Source: a virus | Lineage: Duplodnaviria > Heunggongvirae > Uroviricota > Caudoviricetes | IMG/VR virus record: IMGVR_UViG_2778260992_000008 | Span: 1 to 56,203 of that record | Length of the DNA: 56,203 nucleotides | Strand: one strand, 5' to 3' | Part shown: piece by piece, positions 235-18,138 of the stretch | Layout: the number at the start of each line of letters is the position of its first letter | Numbering within the stretch: the first letter of the stretch is position 1 | The notes under the pieces: generated by a model | Seen by the model: only the letters and a program-made list of their open reading frames with translations | Database searches by the model: none | What the model was told of the DNA's origin: nothing | Program-made: the position numbers and the translations under genes

Positions 235-884
235 TCATCCCCGGTATATTTAGTTAGCGGGATATCCCCATTAATAATAAATTTTGCCATACCGCGATAA
301 TCACGCGAGTAGTCATTGTCGTGACCGAAATCAATTTCACTTGCCGCATCGAATCCGATAACGACGTTTGCCAGCGCGAACGCAATTTGTGCCAACGCTT
401 TTTCGCGCGGGTCAACGTGAATCCGGTAAGTGTATTGCGTCCATGCAATCGGTGTTTCTGCCTTACGCTCAAGTTTGCTTTGAGCAATGGCCCACTTGTC
501 ACCGATGAAACGGAACATAACCGTGTCGATTACGCAGCCGCTGGCTAAACCGTGACAATCAAGCCACACGCCGCACGGTGGTTTCTCCCCTACAATCCAT
601 TCCGTTTTCTCCGGTTTCGGATCACAGTCGTGGCGTTCGTCTTCGATCAGTTCATCAATAATTTCGCTTTCTTTATTCATGCCGTCATCATCCGTTTCAG
701 AGTAACGCACAAAGCGCCACGTATTAGCCATCAGCGTATAAGATTCACCGCCTACCTTAGATCCGGCGTAATACTCCGTCCCGAAATCGTAATAACTTAA
801 AAACGTAGTTACTTCAAAAGACGGAATATCGCCACGGAAGCGGTGAACCATTTTACCTATTGCAAAAGGGGTTTTCTTTGTCAT
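231..884 (-). CDS. hypothetical phage protein (217 aa)
   Basis: Long ORF whose stop overlaps the downstream gene start by 4 nt; no motif recognised. Confidence 0.45.
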   Translation of the reverse strand: MTKKTPFAIGKMVHRFRGDIPSFEVTTFLSYYDFGTEYYAGSKVGGESYTLMANTWRFVRYSETDDDGMNKESEIIDELIEDERHDCDPKPEKTEWIVGEKPPCGVWLDCHGLASGCVIDTVMFRFIGDKWAIAQSKLERKAETPIAWTQYTYRIHVDPREKALAQIAFALANVVIGFDAASEIDFGHDNDYSRDYRGMAKFIINGDIPLTKYTGDE

Positions 885-885
885 A

Positions 886-1074
886 TTACGCCACCGTTAC
901 ATTGTCAACCTGAATAAAATATTCAGGGTGGTTTTCTATTTCGTGCTGAAAGTGCGCGTGACACAATCGCCACTCCCGCGCCTGGTTGTGAAAGTAATAA
1001 ACGCATTCGCCATCAACCTTATACAAAATTCCGGTAGGTCTAGCCATATAATAACGCGCCATTATTGCCCCCAA
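886..1074 (-). CDS. hypothetical small Cys/His-containing protein
   Basis: 62-aa ORF packed between neighbouring minus-strand genes. Confidence 0.3.
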   Translation of the reverse strand: MGAIMARYYMARPTGILYKVDGECVYYFHNQAREWRLCHAHFQHEIENHPEYFIQVDNVTVA

Positions 1075-1493
1075 CGTTTTATGAATTCCTCGTTTAATTT
1101 CGTATCACCAGACCATTGAACATCATGTTCAGCACCGAACGAGTAAATCAATTCGATTAGTTCGCTGAATTCTGATTTACTCATCCGGCTTGTAGACGTT
1201 CCCAATACAACGAAGCCGGATTTATCCAGGTTAGGGACGACGCCATATTTCTTAAGCCCGGCAGTGAATACCGCTTTCCAGTCTTCCGGCGACAGCTTCT
1301 TACCGTACCAATTAACCTGATCGCTAATGTCGGTTAACAGCGCCCAAAGCAACGCATTTTGGCTTAGCGAGCGGGTTTTCTCCTGGATGGTAATTATCAG
1401 CGGGCTTTTGCTATCAGGCTGGATCTCTCTTATCTGCCTGATAGCATTTTCTTTCACTGCGTCGTTGACTATCTCAAATCTAATTTGCCTCAT
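1062..1493 (-). CDS. ninB: NinB-family recombination protein
   Basis: 143 aa; close match in order and motifs to lambda NinB (SQNALLWALLTDIS..., VVPNLDKSGFVVLGTSTSRMSKSEF...). Confidence 0.8.
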   Translation of the reverse strand: MRQIRFEIVNDAVKENAIRQIREIQPDSKSPLIITIQEKTRSLSQNALLWALLTDISDQVNWYGKKLSPEDWKAVFTAGLKKYGVVPNLDKSGFVVLGTSTSRMSKSEFSELIELIYSFGAEHDVQWSGDTKLNEEFIKRWGQ

Positions 1494-1687
1494 AATACAC
1501 CGTTGCTATTTTTCCATTGCGCCCGTGCGTACATAATCGCCTGCAAAGAAATTAGCCGCGAGCTTGTCATGAATGCGCCTTTTAAATATTTCATATCAAC
1601 CGTAACGGGCTTATCAGGATCATCGCCGCGCATGTACTCCGCGATAGTGCTTAAGTCTTCCACTGTTAAATCCAATTCCTTGTCCAT
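1490..1687 (-). CDS. hypothetical protein
   Basis: 65-aa ORF, 4-nt overlap with ninB start. Confidence 0.35.
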   Translation of the reverse strand: MDKELDLTVEDLSTIAEYMRGDDPDKPVTVDMKYLKGAFMTSSRLISLQAIMYARAQWKNSNGVL

Positions 1688-1696
1688 AATTCCCCC

Positions 1697-1903
1697 TTAC
1701 ACAATCCGCATTGTGTTTCGTAATTCCCCGCGCAGCGCCCGCAATGCATCGCGCATTGGCACAAAAACCCGGTTAAATTTTACGTGTTTATATTTACGCA
1801 TCAGTGGCGGTGTATACACCATTGCGTCGTATACTTCCCACGGATAATAAACGCGCGTATCGTCAACAAACGTTTCAACTGAATAAAAGATTACACGTCT
1901 CAT
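1697..1903 (-). CDS. hypothetical protein
   Basis: 68-aa ORF in operon context. Confidence 0.35.
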   Translation of the reverse strand: MRRVIFYSVETFVDDTRVYYPWEVYDAMVYTPPLMRKYKHVKFNRVFVPMRDALRALRGELRNTMRIV

Positions 1904-2536: not shown

Positions 2537-3958
2537 TTAAAAAGATGCGTTGTTCTGGCTGTTTCGTGTGGAGAATCGACTTGCCGCCGGACGTTGTTGC
2601 ATTGACTGAATGCAAGCGGACGCCGCGCGGGCCTGGTCGCATGGGATGATGTTGCCGTTATCGTCAAACCGCTGGTAAACAGTCCCCGTTTTCCCGTGAC
2701 GGTTTTTTGAAACGATGATCTCCATATATTCGCGGGCAACCGATTGTTCGTTGTAGTAGCCGTCGCGGTAGACCATGATGATCCGGTCTGCGTCCTGTTC
2801 AAGATTACCGGAATCACGCAGATCAGAATTGTTCGGGCGCTTGTTCGGTCGTTCCTCAACGCGGCGGGATAATTGCGCCAGCGCCGCCACTGGCACGCGC
2901 AACTCTTTCGCCATCATTTTCAATGACCACGACAATTGCCCTACGGCGAGATCATGACGTTCGGCCTTAGCCAGCTTCATTAACCCGATGTAGTCAATCA
3001 TTACCATCCCCAGGTTAGGATGGTCCTGTTTCATCCGTTCGACGGTGGCGCGTATTTCCTCGACCGTTAACTGCGATGCGTCAACAATCCACACATCGAG
3101 ATCGGCAAGGGCACTCATTCCCTGGGCGACGTGCGCCCAACCTTCGTCATCCAGTTTTACCGGATTACGTAGGCAATCCGTTGATAAGTTCCCAGCGCCA
3201 GCGATAGCACGTTCAGTCATCTGATCGAGCGACATTTCAAGCGTGAACAGCAAAACGCCGACCCGTTGACCTTCGCCGCCAGGGTATGGACGTTCAGCCG
3301 CCGCGCGGGCAATTGCCAACGCTAACGCCGATTTACCAGACCCTGGGCGTCCGGCGATAAGCACCAGATCAGTAGCGTTAATGCCGCCTAACATTTCGTC
3401 GAGTGGTTCGATCCCTGTTTTGATGTTGTCAGAATTAACACCACATTCCATACGTTTGCTTAAGACTTCCGTATATTCCTGTACCGCGTCGCGCAACAGC
3501 ACCGGAATAATCTTGTCTTTCGTTGTCTTTAATTTTGAATAGCGGGAATCAAAATATTTCATCGTCTCCCTGACGGCTTCGAGCGTCCCGGTCTCCAGGT
3601 TGTAGCGGATATCGTCTATCAGTTCCAACATTTGCCGCCGCTGATATTCCTCCTGCAATAGAGCTGCGTACCCCTTAAGGTTGGCAGCAGATGGACACGA
3701 TCGCGCCGTTTGCATTAGCGGGACAAAATTTTCGTTACCGATTTCATCACCGACCATCAGCGCGTCAATAAGGTTTCTGTTTCTGGCTTGCGCCCGGATT
3801 ATCTCAAACGCTCGTTTATATAGTGGAATGGTGAAGACTTCAGGATCGAGCGTAGCAAGAACATCTTGCGCGTTAGGAGTAAGACCGCCCAACAGGAGGC
3901 CACCTATCACAGCCGCCTCCCGTTCCTGGCGTAATGAGTTTATTTGCTCAGTCACCAT
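2537..3958 (-). CDS. replicative DNA helicase, DnaB family
   Basis: 473 aa; Walker A GRPGSGKSALALAIA, DnaB-like N-terminal domain and RecA-like core motifs. Confidence 0.9.
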   Translation of the reverse strand: MVTEQINSLRQEREAAVIGGLLLGGLTPNAQDVLATLDPEVFTIPLYKRAFEIIRAQARNRNLIDALMVGDEIGNENFVPLMQTARSCPSAANLKGYAALLQEEYQRRQMLELIDDIRYNLETGTLEAVRETMKYFDSRYSKLKTTKDKIIPVLLRDAVQEYTEVLSKRMECGVNSDNIKTGIEPLDEMLGGINATDLVLIAGRPGSGKSALALAIARAAAERPYPGGEGQRVGVLLFTLEMSLDQMTERAIAGAGNLSTDCLRNPVKLDDEGWAHVAQGMSALADLDVWIVDASQLTVEEIRATVERMKQDHPNLGMVMIDYIGLMKLAKAERHDLAVGQLSWSLKMMAKELRVPVAALAQLSRRVEERPNKRPNNSDLRDSGNLEQDADRIIMVYRDGYYNEQSVAREYMEIIVSKNRHGKTGTVYQRFDDNGNIIPCDQARAASACIQSMQQRPAASRFSTRNSQNNASF

Positions 3959-11268: not shown

Positions 11269-11388
11269 ATGAAAGTCGGTAAGGATATTGTAACGGTTGC
11301 GCTTTGCGTTATTTGTTTCCTGTTTACGGTTGTGTTTTGCGGAGCACTGGCGGCGGTGATTGGCTTTATTGGTAAAGGGTGGATGTGA
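11269..11388 (+). CDS. small hydrophobic peptide (39 aa)
   Basis: MKVGKDIVTVALCVICFLFTVVFCGALAAVIGFIGKGWM; RBS GTGAGG. Confidence 0.3.
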   Translation: MKVGKDIVTVALCVICFLFTVVFCGALAAVIGFIGKGWM

Positions 11389-11675
11389 TGATGTTATGGG
11401 ATGCAAAGGCGGGTGATCTCGTTGTCTTGCCCGCATATCGTAGTGACCCTGGCCTGGTCGTGCTAAGTAAACCGGAAGATCAGAACGGGATTGTTGAACG
11501 TCCGGTGCTCGTAAAATACCTCGACGGGACACTAATCAAGCCGCGTTATTTTGATGCGGTCCAGCTTAAAGCGCGTAACGTGAAGTTTAAGCCGTTCCGC
11601 GATTACGCCAACAGATACTGGCGGCACTTGTTTGCCGGACTGAACGGAATGTTCGGGGTATTCTATGAATATTAA
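11388..11675 (+). CDS. hypothetical protein
   Basis: ORF in track; ATG 11388 overlaps upstream stop. Confidence 0.4.
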   Translation: MMLWDAKAGDLVVLPAYRSDPGLVVLSKPEDQNGIVERPVLVKYLDGTLIKPRYFDAVQLKARNVKFKPFRDYANRYWRHLFAGLNGMFGVFYEY

Positions 11676-11850
11676 GAAAGTGAAACACTTGAAAGGCGGT
11701 GAGCGAATAAGGGCGTGGTACGGCTACGAATTCACCGTGACGGCCTTCGATCTGCTGGCTGGCGGTGAGGTGGCTATTTACGATGAAGAATATCAGGAGG
11801 TGGGCCGCTGGCACCTGGAACAATATGTCGAGGTGTTAAATGAAAATTAA
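11665..11850 (+). CDS. hypothetical protein
   Basis: 61-aa ORF, overlapping tandem arrangement. Confidence 0.35.
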   Translation: MNIKKVKHLKGGERIRAWYGYEFTVTAFDLLAGGEVAIYDEEYQEVGRWHLEQYVEVLNEN

Positions 11851-12172
11851 ATTCCATAAAGCATATGATAGCGCGACAAATAAGCTATCACTATTTATCG
11901 AATTCGAACGCCGGATCGTGGTTGTACCTTATTCGCGGCGCTTCAATGACGCTGGCGGGCGGCGACAATTCGCGATCGATATGCTGTTACGCGGCTGCGG
12001 CCTTATGCGCCCGCTATCTGATTTGAAACGAATGATGCCTGGATCGTTCGGTCAGATTGATGAAATAGAAATAAGCCCGGAAGAACTGAAACGGGAGCGT
12101 GATTTATTCCTTTCAAGCGAAGGTATCCCGTTTAATTCAGAAACTGAAATGCGCTGGCATCACCCGTTATAA
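11840..12172 (+). CDS. hypothetical protein
   Basis: 110-aa ORF, overlapping tandem arrangement. Confidence 0.4.
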   Translation: MKIKFHKAYDSATNKLSLFIEFERRIVVVPYSRRFNDAGGRRQFAIDMLLRGCGLMRPLSDLKRMMPGSFGQIDEIEISPEELKRERDLFLSSEGIPFNSETEMRWHHPL

Positions 12173-12183
12173 GGATAAATATC

Positions 12184-12804
12184 ATGAACGACATCAAAAC
12201 AGCTTATTCACTTGGCAGCGAAGGCATGTTAATTACTCGCTACACAGAGGACGCAAGTTTTCACGAAGTGGAAACGAAGGACTATCACGAAGTCATTAAA
12301 GATATGGATGCAGGCGCGTATGACGGCGATTTAAACCTGGCCCTGCAAATTGCTGATCTTGTAATGGATGCGTCGATCCGCGATTACGTGTCTTTAAGCG
12401 CGGAAGAGAAAACATCGGTAGCGCGTTACGTATTCTGCCTCACTTTCGTAAAACGCATGGAAGAGGATTTCGGACGCGTGCCAGTACCGGAAGAACTGGA
12501 CCCGCTCGCATATGGTAGCGCGGTGATTGTCCCACTGGGGGACGGGGTGATGGGTAGCGCTTCGTTGCATACAGTCCGCGAACTGATGCGCACTATCCTT
12601 GAGGCTGGCGTGCTTCAGAAAGCGGTTGAAGATGGACACATCGAGAAAAACGCAAAAGAATTTATGCCGCTTATTTATGGCGAGATGGTCGGTAATGACA
12701 TGCGGGCTAATGATTTTGGCGTCCAGGCGGTGGCCTCAGTGCTGAATGAAGCGCGGAAACGTGCACAGCCAATGCCTCACCCGGAAAAACGTGTACTTCA
12801 TTAA
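12184..12804 (+). CDS. hypothetical protein (206 aa)
   Basis: ORF in track with upstream purine-rich RBS; no motif recognised. Confidence 0.5.
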   Translation: MNDIKTAYSLGSEGMLITRYTEDASFHEVETKDYHEVIKDMDAGAYDGDLNLALQIADLVMDASIRDYVSLSAEEKTSVARYVFCLTFVKRMEEDFGRVPVPEELDPLAYGSAVIVPLGDGVMGSASLHTVRELMRTILEAGVLQKAVEDGHIEKNAKEFMPLIYGEMVGNDMRANDFGVQAVASVLNEARKRAQPMPHPEKRVLH

Positions 12805-12807
12805 TCG

Positions 12808-12823
12808 TGTGACATCGTTCACA
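12808..12823. promoter_or_regulatory. perfect CRP-type palindrome TGTGA-N6-TCACA
   Basis: TGTGACATCGTTCACA; lies ~18 nt upstream of a candidate -35 (TTGTCC 12841-12846). Confidence 0.4.
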
Positions 12824-12903
12824 TAAATATACATTTTGTATTGTCCCGCTGTATCCGTTTTGTAAACTGAAGTTAGAAGGTATACAGAACGGAGGGCGGG
12901 AAG

Positions 12904-13086
12904 ATGACAAACTTTGAACGTAACCACAAAAGCAAAGTAAACCCGCATTTCATCATTGAGCGCACGTTAGGCGGACTATTCGCGATCCTGGTCCCGGCGG
13001 CGGCTGTAATGCTCGTTTACATGGTCATCGACCTGATCATTAAAGCCTTTAATAACGGGATCTGTATGTACGCGGTTTGCTATTAA
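12904..13086 (+). CDS. small membrane protein (60 aa)
   Basis: RBS GGAGGG; hydrophobic core LGGLFAILVPAAAVMLVYMVIDLII. Confidence 0.4.
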   Translation: MTNFERNHKSKVNPHFIIERTLGGLFAILVPAAAVMLVYMVIDLIIKAFNNGICMYAVCY

Positions 13087-13097
13087 CGGGGTGCGAT

Positions 13098-13316
13098 ATG
13101 GAACGGGAAATCATGCTGTATTGTGTCGAAGGTGGCGTAGGTCCGGGCGCTTACGTCGCCGGGCGGAAATATCCAGCAAACGAAGTGCTAAGCCATGAAC
13201 AATGGCGGGAGGACGCTTATCACGTAACTGTATGGGGCGCGGACGTCCAGGGCGTCGAGATGATCGGCATCGAGATGTATTTAGGGCGCTTCGATTACGC
13301 GGTTATGGAGGCTTAA
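13098..13316 (+). CDS. hypothetical protein
   Basis: ATG 13098 with RBS GGGGTG; inside track ORF 13077-13316. Confidence 0.4.
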   Translation: MEREIMLYCVEGGVGPGAYVAGRKYPANEVLSHEQWREDAYHVTVWGADVQGVEMIGIEMYLGRFDYAVMEA

Positions 13317-13318
13317 TC

Positions 13319-13417
13319 ATGTGGCTGATTGATTTAATCCTGGCTTGCTGGTTGATTGTTCTGGTTGGTTTTGTCGGGTATTTCGCTTGGGAAGAGGGAA
13401 AACACAATGGACGCTGA
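13319..13417 (+). CDS. small hydrophobic peptide (32 aa)
   Basis: MWLIDLILACWLIVLVGFVGYFAWEEGKHNGR. Confidence 0.3.
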   Translation: MWLIDLILACWLIVLVGFVGYFAWEEGKHNGR

Positions 13418-13496
13418 AATGATCTTTATGGCTTGTTGCTGTGGGATCGTCGCGGTTGGTCTGTTTCTCCGCTGGGTGATTGAAAAATATTTATGA
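13407..13496 (+). CDS. small Cys-containing hydrophobic peptide (29 aa)
   Basis: MDAEMIFMACCCGIVAVGLFLRWVIEKYL; RBS AGAGGG; overlaps the previous mini-ORF. Confidence 0.25.
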   Translation: MDAEMIFMACCCGIVAVGLFLRWVIEKYL

Positions 13497-13504
13497 GGCT
13501 GAAT

Positions 13505-13699
13505 ATGAAAAAGGTTGGCATCTATACATTGCCGGATAACGCTGAATTGGCCGGGATTGGTTTTCTCGGCTGTTATTACTACAACAGTGTAGGCGATATT
13601 TATCGTGTGCGTTTTGTTAATGGTGTGCAGTATTTTTGCAGATTACCAGACGTTACATTGATCGACCTTATCCGGGAGGTATCGTTACATGCGGTTTAA
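13505..13699 (+). CDS. hypothetical protein
   Basis: ATG 13505 preceded by GAGG; inside track ORF 13493-13699. Confidence 0.4.
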   Translation: MKKVGIYTLPDNAELAGIGFLGCYYYNSVGDIYRVRFVNGVQYFCRLPDVTLIDLIREVSLHAV

Positions 13700-13892
13700 A
13701 CATTACAGAGAATGGAAAATTCCAGAAGCAGCAACAAAGGCCGCACCTGGTAATTTTTCGGGCGTTTATTTTTATATGGATGGCAAATGGTATTTCGGCA
13801 GCAGGCCGGATCACTATTATCAAGAAATGTGTAAGCCTCACGTATGGGATATTAAAGAACGCGTGAAAGGCGGGGTAATTGAGGACGTTTAA
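13689..13892 (+). CDS. hypothetical protein
   Basis: 67-aa ORF, overlapping tandem arrangement. Confidence 0.4.
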   Translation: MRFKHYREWKIPEAATKAAPGNFSGVYFYMDGKWYFGSRPDHYYQEMCKPHVWDIKERVKGGVIEDV

Positions 13893-14114
13893 ATGTTAAG
13901 AGAAGTGTTTCACTTTTTTGGGGCGTGGCTTTTAGCCGCGCTTTTATTTTTCCTGGCGTGCGCCGTTGTTATTGCCGTCCTGATCGTCGGCGCAATGTTT
14001 ATCACATGGTCGCTTCCTGATGTTCAGTCGTGGGCGGAATTGCTTTTGGGTATACGCGTGCTATTCGCTTTTAGTGTTTTCGTGGGTTTTTTCTGGGTGG
14101 CCTCGACTTATTGA
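13893..14114 (+). CDS. small integral membrane protein
   Basis: 73 aa with two long hydrophobic segments. Confidence 0.45.
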   Translation: MLREVFHFFGAWLLAALLFFLACAVVIAVLIVGAMFITWSLPDVQSWAELLLGIRVLFAFSVFVGFFWVASTY

Positions 14115-14133
14115 GATGATCCGTGGTGATTAT

Positions 14134-14367
14134 ATGGCTTTATTCAACCTGTCAGAGCCGCAATTCAACGCCGTAAAAACTGCCGCACGCGCGGCGCTTT
14201 CTGCCTGCAAAGCAGAGGTAGAAAGAAACGGATATAGCGATAAAGCCACGCGGCTGATATTAGATAAGCATTATCGCAAGGTCGCCCCGCTAATCAGTAT
14301 TGAGCGTTTTGTGTGGTTGGTGGGATATCTGAATAACCGCTGGGGAGCAGATCAGGATTATTTCTAA
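14134..14367 (+). CDS. hypothetical protein
   Basis: ATG 14134 with RBS GGTGA (alternative ATG 14116); inside track ORF 14020-14367. Confidence 0.4.
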   Translation: MALFNLSEPQFNAVKTAARAALSACKAEVERNGYSDKATRLILDKHYRKVAPLISIERFVWLVGYLNNRWGADQDYF

Positions 14368-14376
14368 GGGGGCGTA

Positions 14377-14915
14377 ATGAAAAATGATTACGGCGGAAGC
14401 CATACGCCAAAAGAAATAAAGGACTTATGGCAAACGCCAAAACCCGTTTTTAGAGGAATGGATCGTGAATTCGAATTCGTCGCGGATGTGGCGGCAAACA
14501 AGGCAAACGCATTAGTTCCGCGATATATAACCGAAGAGATGGACACACTCCATTATCCGTGGGGAGCGGTAGCAATGCCTGGTGAGTATGTCTGGCTTAA
14601 TCCGCCATATTCGAATCCGGGCCATTCGTAGATAAGGCAGCGATGGAACATCACCGAAATCATATTGGCTGTGTAATGTTGTTGCCCGCTGATATCTCTG
14701 TTAACTGGTTTATGAACGGCCTGGAGACGGCAAGCGAATGTCGCTTAATCACGCGCGGGCGGCTGGCGTTTATTAATGCTGCGACGGGTAAGTCAGCAAG
14801 CGGAAACAATAAAGGGAGCTTGTTCTTGATCTGGCATCCACGGTGCAAACATGAATGTATTTTCACGCAGATAACACGTAAAGAGCTATACGCAAGAGGT
14901 GCAAATAATGACTAA
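14377..14915 (+). pseudogene. phage Dam-type DNA N6-adenine methyltransferase, reading frame disrupted
   Basis: ORF 14377-14631 has WQTP...WLNPPYS then stops; downstream frame 14643-14915 carries the VMLLPADIS...WF segment; a 1-nt frame change near 14610-14630 would join them. Confidence 0.55.
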
Positions 14916-15408
14916 GGCAACAGATTTATTGAGACTTGCGGCGGAAACCATAGAGCAAAGAGGTAAGCAAAACGGATACGACAAAAAAGAGGAAAAATCA
15001 GCGCCAAAAATAGCCGCTATTTACAACGCTAAGAAGGGGGCAAATTTAACCCCGCTTGATGTATGGGATCTACTAATTTGTCTCAAGGAGGCGCGATTAG
15101 AAGCTATTTTGAGCAATAATAGCAATCCGACAGACACGCTAATTGATTTGATTAGCTACAACGCGCTAAAAGCAGAACAAATATTAACGGAGCGGGAGGA
15201 AGAACAAAGAAAGAAACAGGCTGTTTTTGAAATGCCGCTGAATAGTGGATTTATAAAAGATGAAGCTATAACCAGTTGTAAGGGATTGCCGCCTTCTATG
15301 CTTAACCCTCAATGTGGTTGCATTTCAACTCGACTTGATTTGAAGTTTGATAGAGCTGAAGCTATTCGTGATAAGAGGTACGATCCAAATGAAAAGGGTG
15401 GTAATTGA
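14908..15408 (+). CDS. hypothetical protein (166 aa)
   Basis: ATG 14908 with RBS AAGAGGTG; no motif recognised. Confidence 0.45.
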   Translation: MTKATDLLRLAAETIEQRGKQNGYDKKEEKSAPKIAAIYNAKKGANLTPLDVWDLLICLKEARLEAILSNNSNPTDTLIDLISYNALKAEQILTEREEEQRKKQAVFEMPLNSGFIKDEAITSCKGLPPSMLNPQCGCISTRLDLKFDRAEAIRDKRYDPNEKGGN

Positions 15409-15892
15409 CAGGTTATTAGCCTGCGTTTATGTCGCCGTTTTCGTGATCATCAATCTTATTGTTAACCATTGCGGCCCGTGGGTAATTCCGATCACCACGG
15501 TAGCCGCCGTGTGTGTCAATATGATGATCCGTGACTTCCTGTTATATGACGGCGGCCTGAAATGGTCGGCTACCACATGCGCCATAGCTGGCGCGATCAC
15601 GGTGCTGATAAATTACGATGCCGGAATGGTGGCGATTGCGTCATTCGTCGCGGTTGTTTCCGGTGCGCTTATTTCTGGCGGTGTTTACCGGGTATTACCT
15701 GGTGACTTTGATTCTAAACGCTGGCCTGCAAATATAGCGTCCGCCATTGGTGATGCGTTAATTTTCCCCACGCTATCGTTTATGGCGTTTATGCCTGAAA
15801 TATCAGCTATGCAATTCATCTCAAAAATGGCGGCGGTAACGGTGATAACTATCATCATGCGCCGCTATTTCACGTTTGAGGGTAGGGAATGA
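15389..15892 (+). CDS. polytopic membrane protein, YhhQ/VUT-like (possible queuosine-precursor transporter)
   Basis: Several hydrophobic helices; resemblance to YhhQ-family segments judged by eye only. Confidence 0.4.
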   Translation: MKRVVIDRLLACVYVAVFVIINLIVNHCGPWVIPITTVAAVCVNMMIRDFLLYDGGLKWSATTCAIAGAITVLINYDAGMVAIASFVAVVSGALISGGVYRVLPGDFDSKRWPANIASAIGDALIFPTLSFMAFMPEISAMQFISKMAAVTVITIIMRRYFTFEGRE

Positions 15893-16677
15893 GCAGGGCT
15901 AAACATTGGTTAAATAAACAGCTTAGAAATTGGGTGGTGTGGTCGCTGTACGACGGCAGCGGGTACGCTGTTAAAGATTGGGCGGACGCTGGTTATAAAT
16001 GTTATTGCTTTAACTATGACGGCGCTAATCACGGCGATTATGACGGGGTAAAAATAATTCATCCAAATATTGAATATGTCAACGTCTGGATTGATAGCCA
16101 TTTCCTGGTAATGTTCTCCCCTGAATTGTCTGTATATCCAGATCCTGACATTATCCTGGGCTTTCCTCCGTGTGATGATCTTGCTGTGTCCGGCGCTCGT
16201 TGGTTCGCTGATAAGCGGAAGAAAGATCCTTACTTTCAGCAGAAAGCAGCGTACAACGCAAAACTGGTAGAAACGCTGGCGAGTATGTATAACGTCCCGT
16301 GGATGGTGGAAAATCCTGTGGGCGCACTGTCAACGTTATGGCGTAAACCTGATTTTATTTTCAATCCGTGCGCTTACGGTGGCTACCTGCCGGAAGATGA
16401 CAAGCATCCTGCTTTCCCGGAATACATCGCTGCCCGTGACGCCTACACGAAGAAAACTTGTATTTGGTGTGGAAATGGATTTAAGCAGCCGCTATTCCGG
16501 CCTGTATCGATGCCGGATGAATGGGAAGACAGTAAACAGCACGCTAAGTTAGGAGGAAAATCGAAACGCACTAAGATGATCCGCTCACTAACGCCGCGCG
16601 GCTTTGCCCGTGCTGTATTCCTGGCTAACGACCGGGCTATCACGCGGACGACGCTTAACCGTGTTTTACCGGATTGA
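15889..16677 (+). CDS. DNA C5-cytosine methyltransferase-like protein with atypical motif IV
   Basis: Motif I-like LYDGSGY; motif IV-like GFPPCDD (canonical PCQ); motif VI-like MVENPVG; only 262 aa. Confidence 0.45.
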   Translation: MSRAKHWLNKQLRNWVVWSLYDGSGYAVKDWADAGYKCYCFNYDGANHGDYDGVKIIHPNIEYVNVWIDSHFLVMFSPELSVYPDPDIILGFPPCDDLAVSGARWFADKRKKDPYFQQKAAYNAKLVETLASMYNVPWMVENPVGALSTLWRKPDFIFNPCAYGGYLPEDDKHPAFPEYIAARDAYTKKTCIWCGNGFKQPLFRPVSMPDEWEDSKQHAKLGGKSKRTKMIRSLTPRGFARAVFLANDRAITRTTLNRVLPD

Positions 16678-16699
16678 TGTTTACAAAATGGCGTCATTG

Positions 16700-16715
16700 T
16701 GTGATGAAGGTCACA
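16700..16715. promoter_or_regulatory. perfect CRP-type palindrome TGTGA-N6-TCACA
   Basis: TGTGATGAAGGTCACA, ~18 nt upstream of candidate -35 TTGTTC (16733-16738) and -10 TATACT (16755-16760). Confidence 0.4.
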
Positions 16716-16840
16716 TAATGGCGCTTTTTACTTTGTTCGGGTGTATCCATTTTGTATACTGCAATCAAACGAAATGCTCTTTAAAAATCCGGCCCCGCTG
16801 AAATGCGGAAACACATCACCTAACAGAATGAGATCAAATT

Positions 16841-17017
16841 ATGAACGATGACAGGTATGCGTGGCATGACGACTACGAGCGCGAATGCGTAATGCGGGCA
16901 ATGTGCAATTTGTGTAACCCCGACAAAGGAGACTGTAACGAGTGCAACAAATGCGTAGATCATTGGCTAAGGGCCGGAGCCGCCGCAAAGCCGAACGAAA
17001 TAGAAAATCGAAAATAA
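16841..17017 (+). CDS. small Cys-rich protein, NinF-like by position
   Basis: 58 aa with eight Cys (CNLCNPDKGDCNECNKC); immediately upstream of ninG; weak RBS. Confidence 0.35.
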   Translation: MNDDRYAWHDDYERECVMRAMCNLCNPDKGDCNECNKCVDHWLRAGAAAKPNEIENRK

Positions 17018-17031
17018 TTGGGGTGATCTTT

Positions 17032-17646
17032 ATGCAAAATCCCAAAAAACCCATAAGACGCCGTTGCAAGTGCTGCGGCGTTTTTTTTGAGCCTAAATAT
17101 CATAATCAAACGTGGTGCAGCGATGAATGTCTGGAAGAACTGAAGTTTGACCAGCTATGCCGCGACCGTGAAAAGGCTATGAAGGCGATGGAACGGAAGA
17201 AACGCCGCGATAGCCAGCGTGATGAACGCAACAGGAAGCGGAAACAGTTAAATCCGCGCAGTTATTGGTTAAAGCAGGCGCAAAACGTGTTTAACGCATA
17301 TATTCGCGAACGTGACGCAGGACAGCCGTGTATATCTTGCGGGACTTATTATTACGAACAATGCGGAATCGATGCGGGACACTGGCGCACAGTAGCGGCA
17401 GCCGGACACCTTCGCTTTAACGAGGATAACGTAAACCTACAATGCCGACATTGCAATCAGGTATTAGACGGCAATGTTGAGTTATACAGAATAAATTTAA
17501 TAAAAAAAATAGGATTAGAAAGGGTTGAGGCATTAGAAAATAATAACGAGACTCACAAATGGACGATCGAAGAATGCAAAGAAATAATAAATATATATCA
17601 GCGTAAATTAGACACATTAAGGAAGGAGAGAGCGCAATGCGCATGA
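17032..17646 (+). CDS. ninG: NinG/Rap-family recombination protein
   Basis: WLKQAQNVFNAYIRERD...CISCG...GH...LRFNEDNVNLQCRHCN...GN match lambda NinG; start 17032 with RBS GGGGTGA. Confidence 0.75.
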   Translation: MQNPKKPIRRRCKCCGVFFEPKYHNQTWCSDECLEELKFDQLCRDREKAMKAMERKKRRDSQRDERNRKRKQLNPRSYWLKQAQNVFNAYIRERDAGQPCISCGTYYYEQCGIDAGHWRTVAAAGHLRFNEDNVNLQCRHCNQVLDGNVELYRINLIKKIGLERVEALENNNETHKWTIEECKEIINIYQRKLDTLRKERAQCA

Positions 17647-17661
17647 TTGGGAGTGTATTGC

Positions 17662-18138
17662 ATGATGAATTGGCACGAATGGTTTTGTTACGATGGTATT
17701 AACCTGATATGGAAAAAGTCACGCGGTAGAATGAAAGCAGGGAGTATTGCTGGGTGTCCAAATGATACTGGTCGCATACGCGTTAGGCTTTTTGGTAGAT
17801 GGTATAAAGCGCACCGTATTATATGGGAAATGCACAACGGCCCTATCCCGGAAGGATACGAGATAGACCATTTAGATCATGACCCTAGCAATAACAGGCT
17901 TAATAATTTTAGATTGGTATTAGGTAAGGAGAACGCGAAGAATAGACCAAAAAATAAAAATAATACCAGCGGGTATACTGGTATCTCATGGGACAAAGGA
18001 AGGGGTAAATGGTCGGTAACGATAATGGTTAATTATAAAACCATTCATCTAGGTAGATTTGATAATTTAGAGGACGCAATAAAGGCAAGACAAGAAGCTG
18101 AAATTAAATACGGTTTTCATCCAAATCACGGTAAGTAA
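17662..18138 (+). CDS. HNH endonuclease with AP2 DNA-binding domain
   Basis: HRIIWEMHNGPIPEGYEIDHLDHDPSNNRLNN then GYTGISWDKGRGKWSV...HLGRFDNLEDAIKARQEAE; AT-rich insertion between ninG and rusA. Confidence 0.75.
   Translation: MMNWHEWFCYDGINLIWKKSRGRMKAGSIAGCPNDTGRIRVRLFGRWYKAHRIIWEMHNGPIPEGYEIDHLDHDPSNNRLNNFRLVLGKENAKNRPKNKNNTSGYTGISWDKGRGKWSVTIMVNYKTIHLGRFDNLEDAIKARQEAEIKYGFHPNHGK

What the first reader, a model, noticed from the sequence alone, without database searches (positions are those of the whole stretch)
14377..16677. DNA-modification cluster: frame-disrupted Dam-type methyltransferase, YhhQ-like membrane protein and atypical C5-methyltransferase-like protein
The Dam-type gene is split. 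Frame 1 ends ...WLNPPYSNPGHS-stop at 14629-14631, and the expected continuation (VMLLPADIS...WF) is in another frame from 14643. No X-XXY-YYZ slippery heptamer is present, so a mutation or sequencing indel is more likely than programmed frameshifting. Downstream are a polytopic membrane protein resembling YhhQ-family transporters and a short 262-aa protein with C5-methyltransferase-like motifs but PCD in place of PCQ. Together they point to an unusual, possibly partly decayed, DNA-modification module.
Basis: partly seen in the sequence, partly recalled or inferred. Interest (0 to 1): 0.7.

Follow-up and report, generated by a model that had tools for sequence, protein, structure and literature searches.

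The report
Phage methylase cluster with broken Dam
This is the standard four-gene DNA-methylation block of a known group of temperate E. coli phages, in which the adenine methylase gene has been knocked out by loss of a single G. The only mild curiosity is a queuosine-precursor-type membrane transporter that lacks the DNA-modifying partner enzyme it normally travels with.

Summary
The window is an mEp021-like (mEpimmI) prophage, and part of it is identical to E. coli assembly GCA_002515915.1.

**Dam.** The gene (Pfam PF05869) is split by a 1-nt deletion in a G4 run (CCGGGGCC to CCGGGCC, 14617-14623). All 34 complete E. coli genomes carrying the gene have a single ORF, as do 49 of 51 related loci. 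The nearest allele differs at only one other base. The split recurs in independent assemblies, so it is a recent real mutation, not programmed frameshifting.

**The 262-aa protein.** It is not an oddity. It belongs to a very large phage "Dcm-like" C5-methyltransferase family found in 1518 phage records. It is 61% identical to the phage KarlJaspers enzyme. A close homologue of that enzyme was shown to make 5mC at CCWGG and to trigger retron Ec86. All four assigned catalytic or substrate-binding residues are conserved. PCD is a lineage variant of the family's PCT.

**The membrane protein.** It is a short VUT/YhhQ-family protein.

**New here.** Relatives of this short VUT sit next to a DpdA-like transglycosylase in 29 of 34 loci. 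In this phage group it instead sits between DUF6378 and the Dcm-like gene, and no DpdA is found in the window. It is nevertheless the most conserved gene of the block.

Overall the finding is ordinary and of low to moderate interest.

The parts
14377..14631 (+). Dam N-terminal fragment (84 aa, ends ...NPPYSNPGHS, then TAG). It carries the catalytic NPPY motif.
   Evidence: Pfam PF05869 positions 1-72 of 169, E 5e-23. phrog_111 DNA methyltransferase, E 1.3e-31. ORF coordinates.
14617..14623 (+). The lesion: CCGGGCC where relatives have CCGGGGCC. One G is missing from a G4 run, which shifts the frame by -1.
   Evidence: Alignments. The nearest allele (E. coli E21845/O/A, L004) differs only by this gap and one substitution in 539 nt. 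The run is GGGG in all 29 related loci where the surrounding pattern could be matched.
14622..14915 (+). Rest of Dam, now out of frame (PFVDKAAMEHHRNHIGCVMLLPADIS...ARGANND, then stop). This frame is open from 14601, and an internal ATG at 14643 gives a 90-aa ORF.
   Evidence: Pfam PF05869 positions 87-167 of 169, E 2.9e-20. Translation is colinear with intact relatives. It has Ser where 48 of 48 relatives have Pro after NAATGK.
14908..15408 (+). DUF6378 gene (166 aa from ATG 14908; the ORF listing gives GTG 14899). It overlaps the Dam stop by 8 nt. Function unknown.
   Evidence: Pfam PF19905 DUF6378, E 1.8e-7. phrog_9871. RefSeq relatives are annotated as DUF6378 domain-containing protein with the same 8-nt overlap. 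dN/dS 0.14-0.37, and the C-terminal half is variable.
15389..15892 (+). Short VUT/YhhQ-family polytopic membrane protein (167 aa), with AAGAGG 11 nt upstream of the ATG.
   Evidence: phrog_4899, E 1e-45. It is 32-36% identical to phage proteins annotated as VUT family. hhalign against 16 Pfam Vut_1-positive proteins gives 99.2%, E 1.2e-19 over 152 columns. The AF2 model is all-helical, pLDDT 88.4. Best BFVD match is 'Putative vitamin uptake transporter'. dN/dS 0.02-0.11.
15889..16677 (+). Dcm-like C5-cytosine DNA methyltransferase (262 aa). Its start overlaps the VUT stop (ATGA). Motifs: YDGSG (I), FPPC95DD (IV), E141-N-P (VI), K188-K189.
   Evidence: phrog_757 DNA methyltransferase, E 4.8e-88. 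More than 7700 homologous clusters. AF2 pLDDT 85.8. Foldseek best matches are DNMT3A/3B. It is 61% identical to KarlJaspers Bas06 gp55, E 5e-102. dN/dS 0.05-0.09.
16690..16735 (+). Terminator-like hairpin (16 pairs) followed by a T-rich tail. It closes the block.
   Evidence: Top-ranked terminator-like site. It is in the same position as TERM_4 of mEp021, directly after its cytosine methyltransferase gene. The mEpimmI paper places nutR2 and t4 downstream of that gene.

Best explanation
The region is the conserved delayed-early accessory block of an mEp021-like (mEpimmI) temperate coliphage. It has four translationally coupled genes, closed by a terminator: dam, DUF6378, a short VUT/YhhQ-type permease, and a Dcm-like C5-methyltransferase.

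In this copy dam has been inactivated. One G was lost from a GGGG run just after the NPPY catalytic motif, most likely by replication slippage. The loss is recent and heritable, and it is not a recoding signal.

The Dcm-like enzyme is intact. By homology it methylates phage DNA, and incidentally host and retron DNA, at C5 of cytosine, most likely in CCWGG. This would protect against EcoRII-type restriction. Because this window also lacks the N4/N6 methylase found in mEp021, the Dcm-like enzyme is its only intact DNA methyltransferase.

The VUT protein is inferred to import a 7-deazaguanine or queuosine precursor (preQ0, preQ1 or a related base). In other phages this short VUT is the neighbour of DpdA, which inserts such bases into DNA. 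Here there is no DpdA, so the permease must serve a DpdA-independent purpose. The published suggestion for such cases is raising queuosine in host tRNA.

What is shown:
- the lesion and its rarity
- family membership of all four genes
- purifying selection on them
- the synteny patterns

What is inferred:
- the CCWGG specificity
- the substrate of the permease
- the reason dam was lost
For: **Source.**
- The cluster is 84-91% identical to mEp021, mEp010/013/044/515/554 and MagusPhagus, and to 35 E. coli prophages.
- Window 11377-17631 is 100% identical to NJRU01000011.1.

**Dam.**
- The lesion is a single-G deletion.
- All 34 complete genomes with the gene span 539 or 540 bp against the window's 538 or 539, one base more in each case, and are annotated as one gene.
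- Among 51 related loci, Dam is a single ORF in 49. The exceptions are a T5-to-T4 frameshift in L020 and a deletion in L056.
- The split genes are also called on two Logan contigs, and the 84-aa fragment is found on 4 contigs from 3 samples.
- Dam dN/dS across the group is 0.05-0.10, so the gene is normally maintained.

**Dcm-like.**
- Phage K42 is 95.4% identical genome-wide to KarlJaspers. Its 711-bp dcm gave 5mC on retron Ec86 msDNA by LC-MS.
- That activity depended on the CCWGG site, and C82, E128, K175 and K176 were assigned as the catalytic and binding residues (bioRxiv 10.1101/2023.08.16.553469).
- These residues align to C95, E141, K188 and K189 here.

**VUT.**
- It is adjacent to a DpdA-like gene (phrog_887) in Phleasolo, LHE71, PEAT2 and 29 of 34 IMG/VR loci.
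- It is followed by Dcm-like, never by DpdA, in 46 mEp-type loci.
- The same gene order is seen in a more divergent contig.
- No DpdA or TGT was found in the window, by tblastn or by Pfam and PHROGs scans of the non-structural ORFs of 150 aa or more.
- VUT is intact in 50 of 51 loci, including those where Dcm-like or Dam is broken.
- The published idea that phages with queuosine-pathway genes but no DpdA may boost tRNA queuosine is in PMC6884629.
Against: - No methylation or transport data exist for this phage. CCWGG specificity is extrapolated across 61% identity.
- The window's VUT does not itself reach any Pfam threshold. Membership rests on transitive and profile-profile homology.
- The three samples carrying the frameshift could be one strain sequenced repeatedly.
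- The 90-aa C-terminal ORF has its own ATG and an AAGG upstream, so fragment complementation is not formally excluded.
- Very divergent DpdA types among small ORFs (under 150 aa) or structural genes were not exhaustively excluded.
Confidence: 0.8

Rival explanations
1. The Dam split is a sequencing or assembly error in a homopolymer, and the real phage has an intact dam.
For: The lesion is a 1-nt change in a homopolymer, the classic error type. The rest of the gene is almost identical to an intact allele. The other Dam frameshift found, in L020, is also in a homopolymer.
Against: The 84-aa and 90-aa products are called on an NCBI assembly and on two separately assembled Logan contigs of different lengths, four contigs and three samples in all. 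A G4 run is short for systematic error. The out-of-frame part also carries a unique Pro-to-Ser change at a residue invariant in 48 of 48 relatives, which fits relaxed constraint, although this is a single event.
Confidence: 0.1
2. Dam is still made, either by programmed or stochastic -1 ribosomal slippage at CCG GGC, or by assembly of the separately translated 84-aa and 90-aa pieces.
For: The C-terminal frame has an ATG (14643) preceded by AAGG. Split methyltransferases exist in nature (own knowledge, for example M.AquI). G-rich runs can support low-level slippage.
Against: There is no slippery heptamer and no conserved downstream structure was sought or seen. Every relative, 83 of 85 at this site, encodes a single ORF, so no recoding device has been selected. 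The break lies directly after the catalytic NPPY loop.
Confidence: 0.04
3. Loss of dam is adaptive. Phage methyltransferases trigger retron-type abortive-infection systems, so the frameshift is an escape mutation fixed in a host lineage that carries such a sensor.
For: Phage Dcm triggers retron Ec86, and escapers carry 1-bp indels or deletions in dcm. The phage Bas51 N6-adenine methyltransferase triggers retrons Asa1 and Squ1, with escape by methyltransferase mutations (PMC12548924). In relatives the Dcm-like gene is broken or deleted in about 10 of 51 loci, and Dam is broken independently in L020.
Against: There is no evidence that the host of this prophage has such a system. Host Dam makes phage Dam redundant in E. 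coli, so neutral decay explains the data equally well. Dam disruption is rare (3 of about 86 copies).
Confidence: 0.15
4. VUT and the Dcm-like enzyme, with or without DUF6378, form one functional unit that installs a non-methyl or 7-deazapurine-related modification. The Dcm-like protein would have replaced DpdA at the same position.
For: The junction architecture (ATGA overlap) is the same as VUT-DpdA in Phleasolo and LHE71. The order Dam-DUF6378-VUT-Dcm is kept at 52-64% protein identity. VUT is under strong constraint without DpdA.
Against: VUT stays intact in all loci where Dcm-like is frameshifted, deleted or displaced by an HNH gene. The Dcm-like family occurs in 1518 phage records, but the short VUT occurs in only 21. 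This protein keeps all the catalytic residues of a demonstrated 5mC methylase.
Confidence: 0.05

Closest known systems
Phage N6-adenine methyltransferase, Dam family (Pfam PF05869, TIGR01712 phage_N6A_met)
   Same: Both halves match the family profile end to end, with only about 14 profile positions unmatched at the junction. The NPPY motif is present.
   Different: A 1-nt deletion after codon 82 truncates it to 84 aa. Neither fragment reaches the TIGR01712 cut-off on its own (72.9 and 51 bits against 97.05).
Dcm-like C5-cytosine methyltransferase of Drexlerviridae phages (KarlJaspers Bas06 gp55, phage K42 Dcm), the trigger of retron Ec86
   Same: 61% identity over 232 aa. C82, E128, K175 and K176 are all conserved. 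The fold is compact and DNMT3-like, with almost no target-recognition domain.
   Different: It has a 13-15-residue N-terminal extension and a short C-terminal tail (262 aa against 236). The motif is PCD instead of PCT. It sits in a temperate phage, directly after a VUT gene, rather than next to helicase genes. Its activity and site are untested.
YhhQ / VUT (COG1738, Pfam PF02592) preQ0/preQ1 transporters, and the short phage VUT plus DpdA pair
   Same: Full-length homology to 154-159-aa phage and prophage VUT proteins that pass the Pfam Vut_1 threshold. It is an all-helical polytopic protein, and its stop overlaps the start of a roughly 260-aa DNA-modifying enzyme gene.
   Different: The downstream partner is a C5-methyltransferase, not DpdA, and no DpdA or queuosine-pathway gene was found in the window. 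The protein itself falls below Pfam detection. At 167 aa it is shorter than the approximately 221 aa I recall for E. coli YhhQ (own knowledge, not checked here).
mEpimmI phage group (mEp021, mEp010, mEp013, mEp044, mEp515, mEp554), PMC11893012
   Same: Same gene order from ipe through dam, DUF6378, membrane protein, cytosine methyltransferase, terminator, NinG, RusA and Q, at 84-91% DNA identity.
   Different: In this copy dam is frameshifted, the mEp021_05 N4/N6 methylase is absent, and an HNH-AP2 endonuclease gene lies between ninG and rusA.

Membership tests
Phage Dam (PF05869 / TIGR01712) | Match to the family profile over its full length | tested here: met
   Profile positions 1-72 and 87-167 of 169 are matched by the two fragments. 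Restoring one G gives a colinear 179-aa protein.
Phage Dam (PF05869 / TIGR01712) | Catalytic (D/N)PPY motif | tested here: met
   NPPY at residues 75-78 of the N-terminal fragment.
Phage Dam (PF05869 / TIGR01712) | Single uninterrupted reading frame encoding an active enzyme | tested here: not met
   The frame is broken at 14619-14623 with a stop at 14629-14631. This copy is a pseudogene.
Phage Dam (PF05869 / TIGR01712) | GATC N6-adenine methylation activity | not testable with these tools
   Needs methylome sequencing of phage DNA from a dam- host.
C5-cytosine DNA methyltransferase (phage Dcm-like subfamily, phrog_757) | Rossmann-type C5-methyltransferase fold | tested here: met
   AF2 model with pLDDT 85.8 and pTM 0.85. 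The top 50 Foldseek PDB matches are all DNMT3A/3B/3C or DNMT1 catalytic domains, best E 4.5e-7, probability 1.00, TM 0.4-0.5.
C5-cytosine DNA methyltransferase (phage Dcm-like subfamily, phrog_757) | Motif IV Pro-Cys nucleophile | tested here: met
   FPPC95. The Cys is invariant in 30 of 30 aligned members and aligns to C82 of the K42/Bas06 enzyme. The next residue is D here and T in 111 of 117 family members.
C5-cytosine DNA methyltransferase (phage Dcm-like subfamily, phrog_757) | Motif VI Glu-Asn-Val type glutamate | tested here: met
   E141-N142-P143 is invariant and aligns to E128.
C5-cytosine DNA methyltransferase (phage Dcm-like subfamily, phrog_757) | Motif I F-x-G-x-G SAM-binding loop | tested here: met
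   Y-D-G-S-G at residues 21-25. G23 and S24 are invariant, and it aligns with the DNMT3B FDGIATG loop in the profile search.
C5-cytosine DNA methyltransferase (phage Dcm-like subfamily, phrog_757) | Match to the curated Pfam model PF00145 | tested here: not met
   No Pfam hit at E up to 0.1. Only 3 of the 120 listed homologues carry a precomputed PF00145 hit. The subfamily is too divergent for that model.
C5-cytosine DNA methyltransferase (phage Dcm-like subfamily, phrog_757) | Demonstrated 5mC formation and target site | not testable with these tools
   Shown for phage K42 Dcm, a homologue of the 61%-identical Bas06 protein. Not shown for this protein.
VUT / YhhQ (Pfam PF02592, COG1738) | Direct match to Pfam Vut_1 above the gathering score | tested here: not met
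   No Pfam family at E up to 0.1 for the window protein.
VUT / YhhQ (Pfam PF02592, COG1738) | Homology to bona fide members | tested here: met
   hhalign gives 99.2%, E 1.2e-19 over 152 columns against 16 proteins, all of which match Vut_1 at E up to 0.001 (best E 7.5e-11). The one whose bit score was printed is above the gathering score, 36.1 against 27.2 bits. tblastn to PEAT2 gp18 gives E 2e-12; that protein scores 38.1 bits against the 27.2-bit Vut_1 cut-off.
VUT / YhhQ (Pfam PF02592, COG1738) | Polytopic helical membrane protein | tested here: met
   The AF2 model has five long helices covering residues 2-160, pLDDT 88.4. The mEp021 orthologue is annotated with 6 transmembrane segments.
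VUT / YhhQ (Pfam PF02592, COG1738) | Transport of preQ0/preQ1 | not testable with these tools
   Needs uptake or complementation assays.
Phage 7-deazaguanine DNA modification system (DpdA-based) | Presence of a DpdA/TGT-family transglycosylase, the signature protein according to PMC10516641 | tested here: not met
   tblastn with three DpdA-like proteins found nothing; the best hit, E 0.003, lies in a tail protein L gene. No TGT or phrog_887 hit was found among the ORFs of 150 aa or more that were scanned. None is annotated in the first 50 kb of the 54.7-kb mEp021 genome.

The most novel reading that the evidence does not exclude
The short VUT permease, which in other phages is almost always wired to DpdA, has been kept under strong selection in the mEpimmI lineage for a DpdA-independent job. 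One possibility is importing a queuosine precursor to re-tune host tRNA decoding during lytic growth. Another is supplying a base to an unrecognised modifying activity encoded next to it (DUF6378 or the Dcm-like enzyme). Either would be a new use of 7-deazapurine salvage by a temperate phage.
Probability: 0.12. Interest if true: 0.6.

Novelty: new member of a known kind. Interest (0 to 1): 0.27.

Why it matters
There are three practical consequences.

- **Annotation.** The "putative membrane protein" or "hypothetical protein" of mEp021-like phages and prophages can be named a VUT/YhhQ-family protein. The "atypical" 262-aa protein can be named a Dcm-like C5-methyltransferase with an experimentally characterised close relative.
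- **Methylation and defence.** This prophage should methylate cytosine but not adenine on its own. That affects how it fares against restriction systems and against methylation-sensing retrons.
- **An experimental handle.** The DpdA-less VUT, the most conserved gene of the block, offers a small, clean way to ask what queuosine-precursor import does for a phage when DNA modification is not the purpose.

None of this overturns current understanding.

Tried and rejected
**Considered and rejected**
- Programmed -1 frameshifting. There is no slippery heptamer, and all relatives encode a single ORF.
- Phase variation. A G4 run is too short, and all relatives checked have GGGG.
- A hidden DpdA in the window. 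tblastn with three DpdA-like proteins gave only a spurious E 0.003 hit inside a tail protein L gene. Pfam and PHROGs scans of the early-region and other unassigned ORFs found helicase, exonuclease, replication, repressor and ERF genes, but no TGT.
- Homology between the 262-aa protein and the DpdA-like partners of VUT. None was found.
- Avoidance of CCWGG or GATC sites. The opposite holds: both are over-represented.

**Searches that led nowhere**
- A PDB sequence search for the DUF6378 protein gave no meaningful hit.
- A PDB profile search for the DpdA-like proteins gave nothing. Their identity rests on phrog_887.
- The exact frameshift junction has no match in IMG/VR. The intact junction has one, in a contig that carries a different Dam frameshift.

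**Tools unavailable or weak**
- The afdb50 fold library was unavailable.
- The BFVD search gave only weak support, best E 0.043, for the vitamin uptake transporter match.
- The look-up of encoding contigs failed five times before working.
Full report
**Where the window comes from.** The 2.4-kb region is 84-91% identical at the DNA level to the same region of phages mEp021, mEp010, mEp013, mEp044, mEp515, mEp554 and MagusPhagus. It is similarly close to prophages in 35 of 5426 complete E. coli genomes. These are the Nus-dependent, non-lambdoid mEpimmI temperate coliphages described in PMC11893012. Window 11377-17631 is 100% identical to E. coli WGS contig NJRU01000011.1 of GCA_002515915.1. In mEp021 the block is annotated ipe, putative Dam, hypothetical protein, putative membrane protein, putative DNA cytosine methyltransferase and a terminator, followed by ninF, ninG, a Holliday-junction resolvase and Q. 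The window has the same order, with NinG, RusA and Q confirmed by Pfam.

**The observation.**
- ATG 14377 opens a frame that ends ...WLNPPYSNPGHS at TAG 14629-14631.
- A second frame, open from 14601 with an ATG at 14643, reads ...GCVMLLPADISVNWF... to 14915.
- The two products match Pfam Dam (PF05869) at profile positions 1-72 and 87-167 of 169. They also match TIGR01712.

**The Dam lesion.** Alignment with five intact relatives places the difference in a G run. The window has CCGGGCC (14617-14623) where the others have CCGGGGCC. The closest allele, from E. coli E21845/O/A, differs from the window only by this gap and one substitution in 539 nt.
- All 34 complete genomes carrying the gene align over one base more than the matched query stretch (539 or 540 bp against 538 or 539) and are annotated as one gene.
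- Of 51 related loci (5 annotated records and 46 IMG/VR contigs), 49 encode Dam as a single ORF.
- The two exceptions are a deletion (L056) and an independent frameshift in L020, where a T5 run has become T4 at codons 25-26.
- Across the group Dam evolves with dN/dS 0.05-0.10, so it is normally a maintained gene.

There is no X XXY YYZ heptamer, and no relative needs recoding, so programmed frameshifting is rejected.

A pure assembly artefact is unlikely. The 84-aa and 90-aa products are called on the NCBI assembly and on two Logan contigs of different length, 75,199 and 75,206 bp. These amount to four contigs from three samples. The one other difference from the nearest allele changes a Pro that is invariant in 48 of 48 relatives to Ser, downstream of the frameshift. 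That fits relaxed constraint, although it is a single event.

I conclude that this is a recent, real loss-of-function mutation of the slippage type. Whether it is neutral or selected cannot be decided here. It could be neutral because host Dam is redundant with phage Dam. It could be selected because phage adenine and cytosine methyltransferases are documented triggers of retron defence, with escape by methyltransferase mutations.

**The 262-aa protein.** It has no Pfam or NCBIfam hit, which explains why it looked atypical. However, it matches phrog_757 "DNA methyltransferase" at E 4.8e-88. It has more than 7700 homologous 90%-identity clusters and tblastn matches in 1518 of 50,697 phage records, mostly Escherichia, Klebsiella and Salmonella phages. 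Many of those records are annotated as Dcm-like C5 cytosine methyltransferase.

An AlphaFold model built on 30 sequences is confident (pLDDT 85.8, pTM 0.85). Its best PDB matches are all DNMT3A/3B/DNMT1 catalytic domains (E from 4.5e-7, probability 1.00, TM 0.4-0.5). A profile search of PDB sequences aligns motifs I-IV with DNMT3B and M.HaeIII.

The protein is 61% identical (E 5e-102) to gp55 of phage KarlJaspers (Bas06). Phage K42 is 95.4% identical to KarlJaspers genome-wide. Its 711-bp dcm was shown by LC-MS to put 5mC on retron Ec86 msDNA and to trigger that retron, and both effects depended on the CCWGG site. C82, E128, K175 and K176 were assigned as the catalytic and substrate-binding residues (bioRxiv 10.1101/2023.08.16.553469). 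These align exactly to C95, E141, K188 and K189 of the window protein, and all are invariant or nearly so in the family.

The residue after Pro-Cys is Thr in 111 of 117 family members and Asp in all 42 mEp-type loci where the motif was found. DNMT3 enzymes have Asn there. So PCD in place of PCQ is lineage variation at a non-catalytic position. The gene is under purifying selection (dN/dS 0.05-0.09). This is therefore an intact, ordinary member of a known family. Its CCWGG specificity is an inference.

**The membrane protein.** The likely start is ATG 15389, with AAGAGG 11 nt upstream, giving 167 aa. It matches phrog_4899 (unknown function) and no Pfam family. Close homologues are confined to this phage group. 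At 29-38% identity, however, it matches phage proteins annotated as VUT family or vitamin uptake transporter.

A profile search retrieved 741 proteins, and most of those listed carry a precomputed PF02592 (Vut_1) hit and names such as VUT family or YhhQ. Profile-profile comparison of the mEp-type proteins with 16 such proteins gives 99.2% probability, E 1.2e-19 over 152 columns. All 16 match Vut_1. The AlphaFold model is an all-helical polytopic protein (pLDDT 88.4). Its best match among viral models is "Putative vitamin uptake transporter", but only weakly (E 0.043). The YhhQ-like reading is therefore supported by homology, although the protein fails the direct Pfam test.

**What is unusual: the company the VUT keeps.**
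- In Drexlerviridae phages Phleasolo and LHE71 and in Pectobacterium phage PEAT2, the short VUT gene is followed, with overlapping stop and start, by a 262-276-aa protein. That protein belongs to phrog_887 "queuine tRNA-ribosyltransferase", the DpdA type (E 1e-71 to 1e-86).
- Of 34 distant VUT loci from IMG/VR, 29 have such a DpdA-like gene immediately next to the VUT. Two of the five without one have the VUT within about 300 nt of a contig end.
- In all 46 mEp-type IMG/VR loci, the gene after VUT is the Dcm-like methyltransferase, or an HNH endonuclease followed by Dcm or its remnant. It is never DpdA.
- A more divergent Logan contig (VUT 52%, Dcm-like 64% identical) keeps the order 182 aa, 99 aa, VUT, 234-aa Dcm-like.
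- The DpdA-like proteins are unrelated to the 262-aa protein.
- No DpdA or TGT could be found anywhere in the window. None is annotated in the first 50 kb of the 54.7-kb mEp021 genome.

DpdA is regarded as the signature of 7-deazaguanine DNA modification (PMC10516641), so that modification is not predicted here.

Even so, VUT is the most constrained gene of the block (dN/dS 0.02-0.11, 95-98% protein identity). It is intact in 50 of 51 loci. The Dcm-like gene, by contrast, is frameshifted, internally deleted, displaced or absent in about 10 of 51. That asymmetry argues that VUT works independently of both methyltransferases. The literature already notes that YhhQ homologues occur in phages without a clear pattern, and that phages with queuosine-pathway genes but no DpdA might raise queuosine in tRNA (PMC6884629). 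This is the most economical reading, and it is untested.

**Mechanistic summary.** The block is transcribed with the delayed-early genes and ends at a strong hairpin terminator at 16690-16735. This terminator is at the position of mEp021 TERM_4. The mEpimmI paper places nutR2 and t4 downstream of the cytosine methyltransferase gene.

In a wild-type phage, Dam and the Dcm-like enzyme would methylate the many GATC sites (285) and CCWGG sites (152) of the genome. Both are over-represented rather than avoided. In this copy only cytosine methylation can be phage-encoded, because dam is broken and the N4/N6 methylase of mEp021 is absent.

**Verdict.** The finding resolves into known parts:
- a recently pseudogenised phage dam
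- a regular Dcm-like methyltransferase
- a divergent VUT/YhhQ protein
- an unremarked DUF6378 gene

Together these form the standard accessory block of a described phage group. The only item beyond routine annotation is the DpdA-less, strongly conserved VUT. It is a modest lead, not a new system.

Noticed in passing
window 17647-18138: An HNH_3 plus AP2-domain endonuclease ORF (163 aa) sits between ninG and rusA. It is absent at that site in mEp021, the E. coli PAR prophage and MagusPhagus, so it looks like a mobile homing endonuclease.
   Followed up: partly
L004 5018-5545, L005 5018-5545, L014 3501-4025, L017 3501-4025: In some relatives a different HNH endonuclease gene is inserted between the VUT gene and the Dcm-like gene. 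In L014 and L017 only the last 27 codons of Dcm-like remain after it.
   Followed up: partly
related loci L004, L012, L037 (frameshifts); L050-L052 (internal deletion); L036 (absent): The Dcm-like gene is broken or lost in about 10 of 51 related prophages and phages, while the neighbouring VUT gene is intact in 50 of 51. This could reflect escape from methylation-sensing retrons or simple redundancy with host Dcm.
   Followed up: partly
L020 1977-2512 (IMGVR_UViG_2700989400_000004): There is an independent Dam frameshift in another prophage of the same allele group. A T5 run has become T4 at codons 25-26, and the G4 run is intact.
   Followed up: yes
L006 4001-5304, L008 4016-5319, L007 4004-5229, and 29 of L058-L091: A short (about 155-aa) VUT gene and a DpdA-like gene (phrog_887) form a tight two-gene unit in T1-like Drexlerviridae, Peatvirus and many uncultured phages. 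This suggests 7-deazaguanine DNA modification fed by precursor import in these phages.
   Followed up: partly
window, whole length: CCWGG (152 found, 66.7 expected) and GATC (285 found, 191 expected) are both strongly over-represented relative to dinucleotide-preserving shuffles. Neither site is avoided.
   Followed up: no
window 884-1900, compared with mEp021 2836-3573: The N4/N6 DNA methyltransferase of mEp021 (mEp021_05) has no counterpart anywhere in the window.
   Followed up: yes
window 14908-15408 and relatives: Only the N-terminal 100 or so residues of the DUF6378 protein are conserved. The C-terminal part varies in length and sequence between relatives, or is frameshifted (62-93% identity, 22 of 51 partial matches). 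PHROGs labels related families 'phosphofructokinase', which looks like a mis-annotation.
   Followed up: no
window 14020-14367 and 13689-13892: Just upstream of dam lie the orthologue of mEp021 ipe ('inducer of pleiotropic effects', phrog_303) and a DUF7274 ORF. RefSeq labels the small adjacent ORF between them 'cell division protein FtsK', which seems doubtful for a 73-78-aa protein.
   Followed up: no
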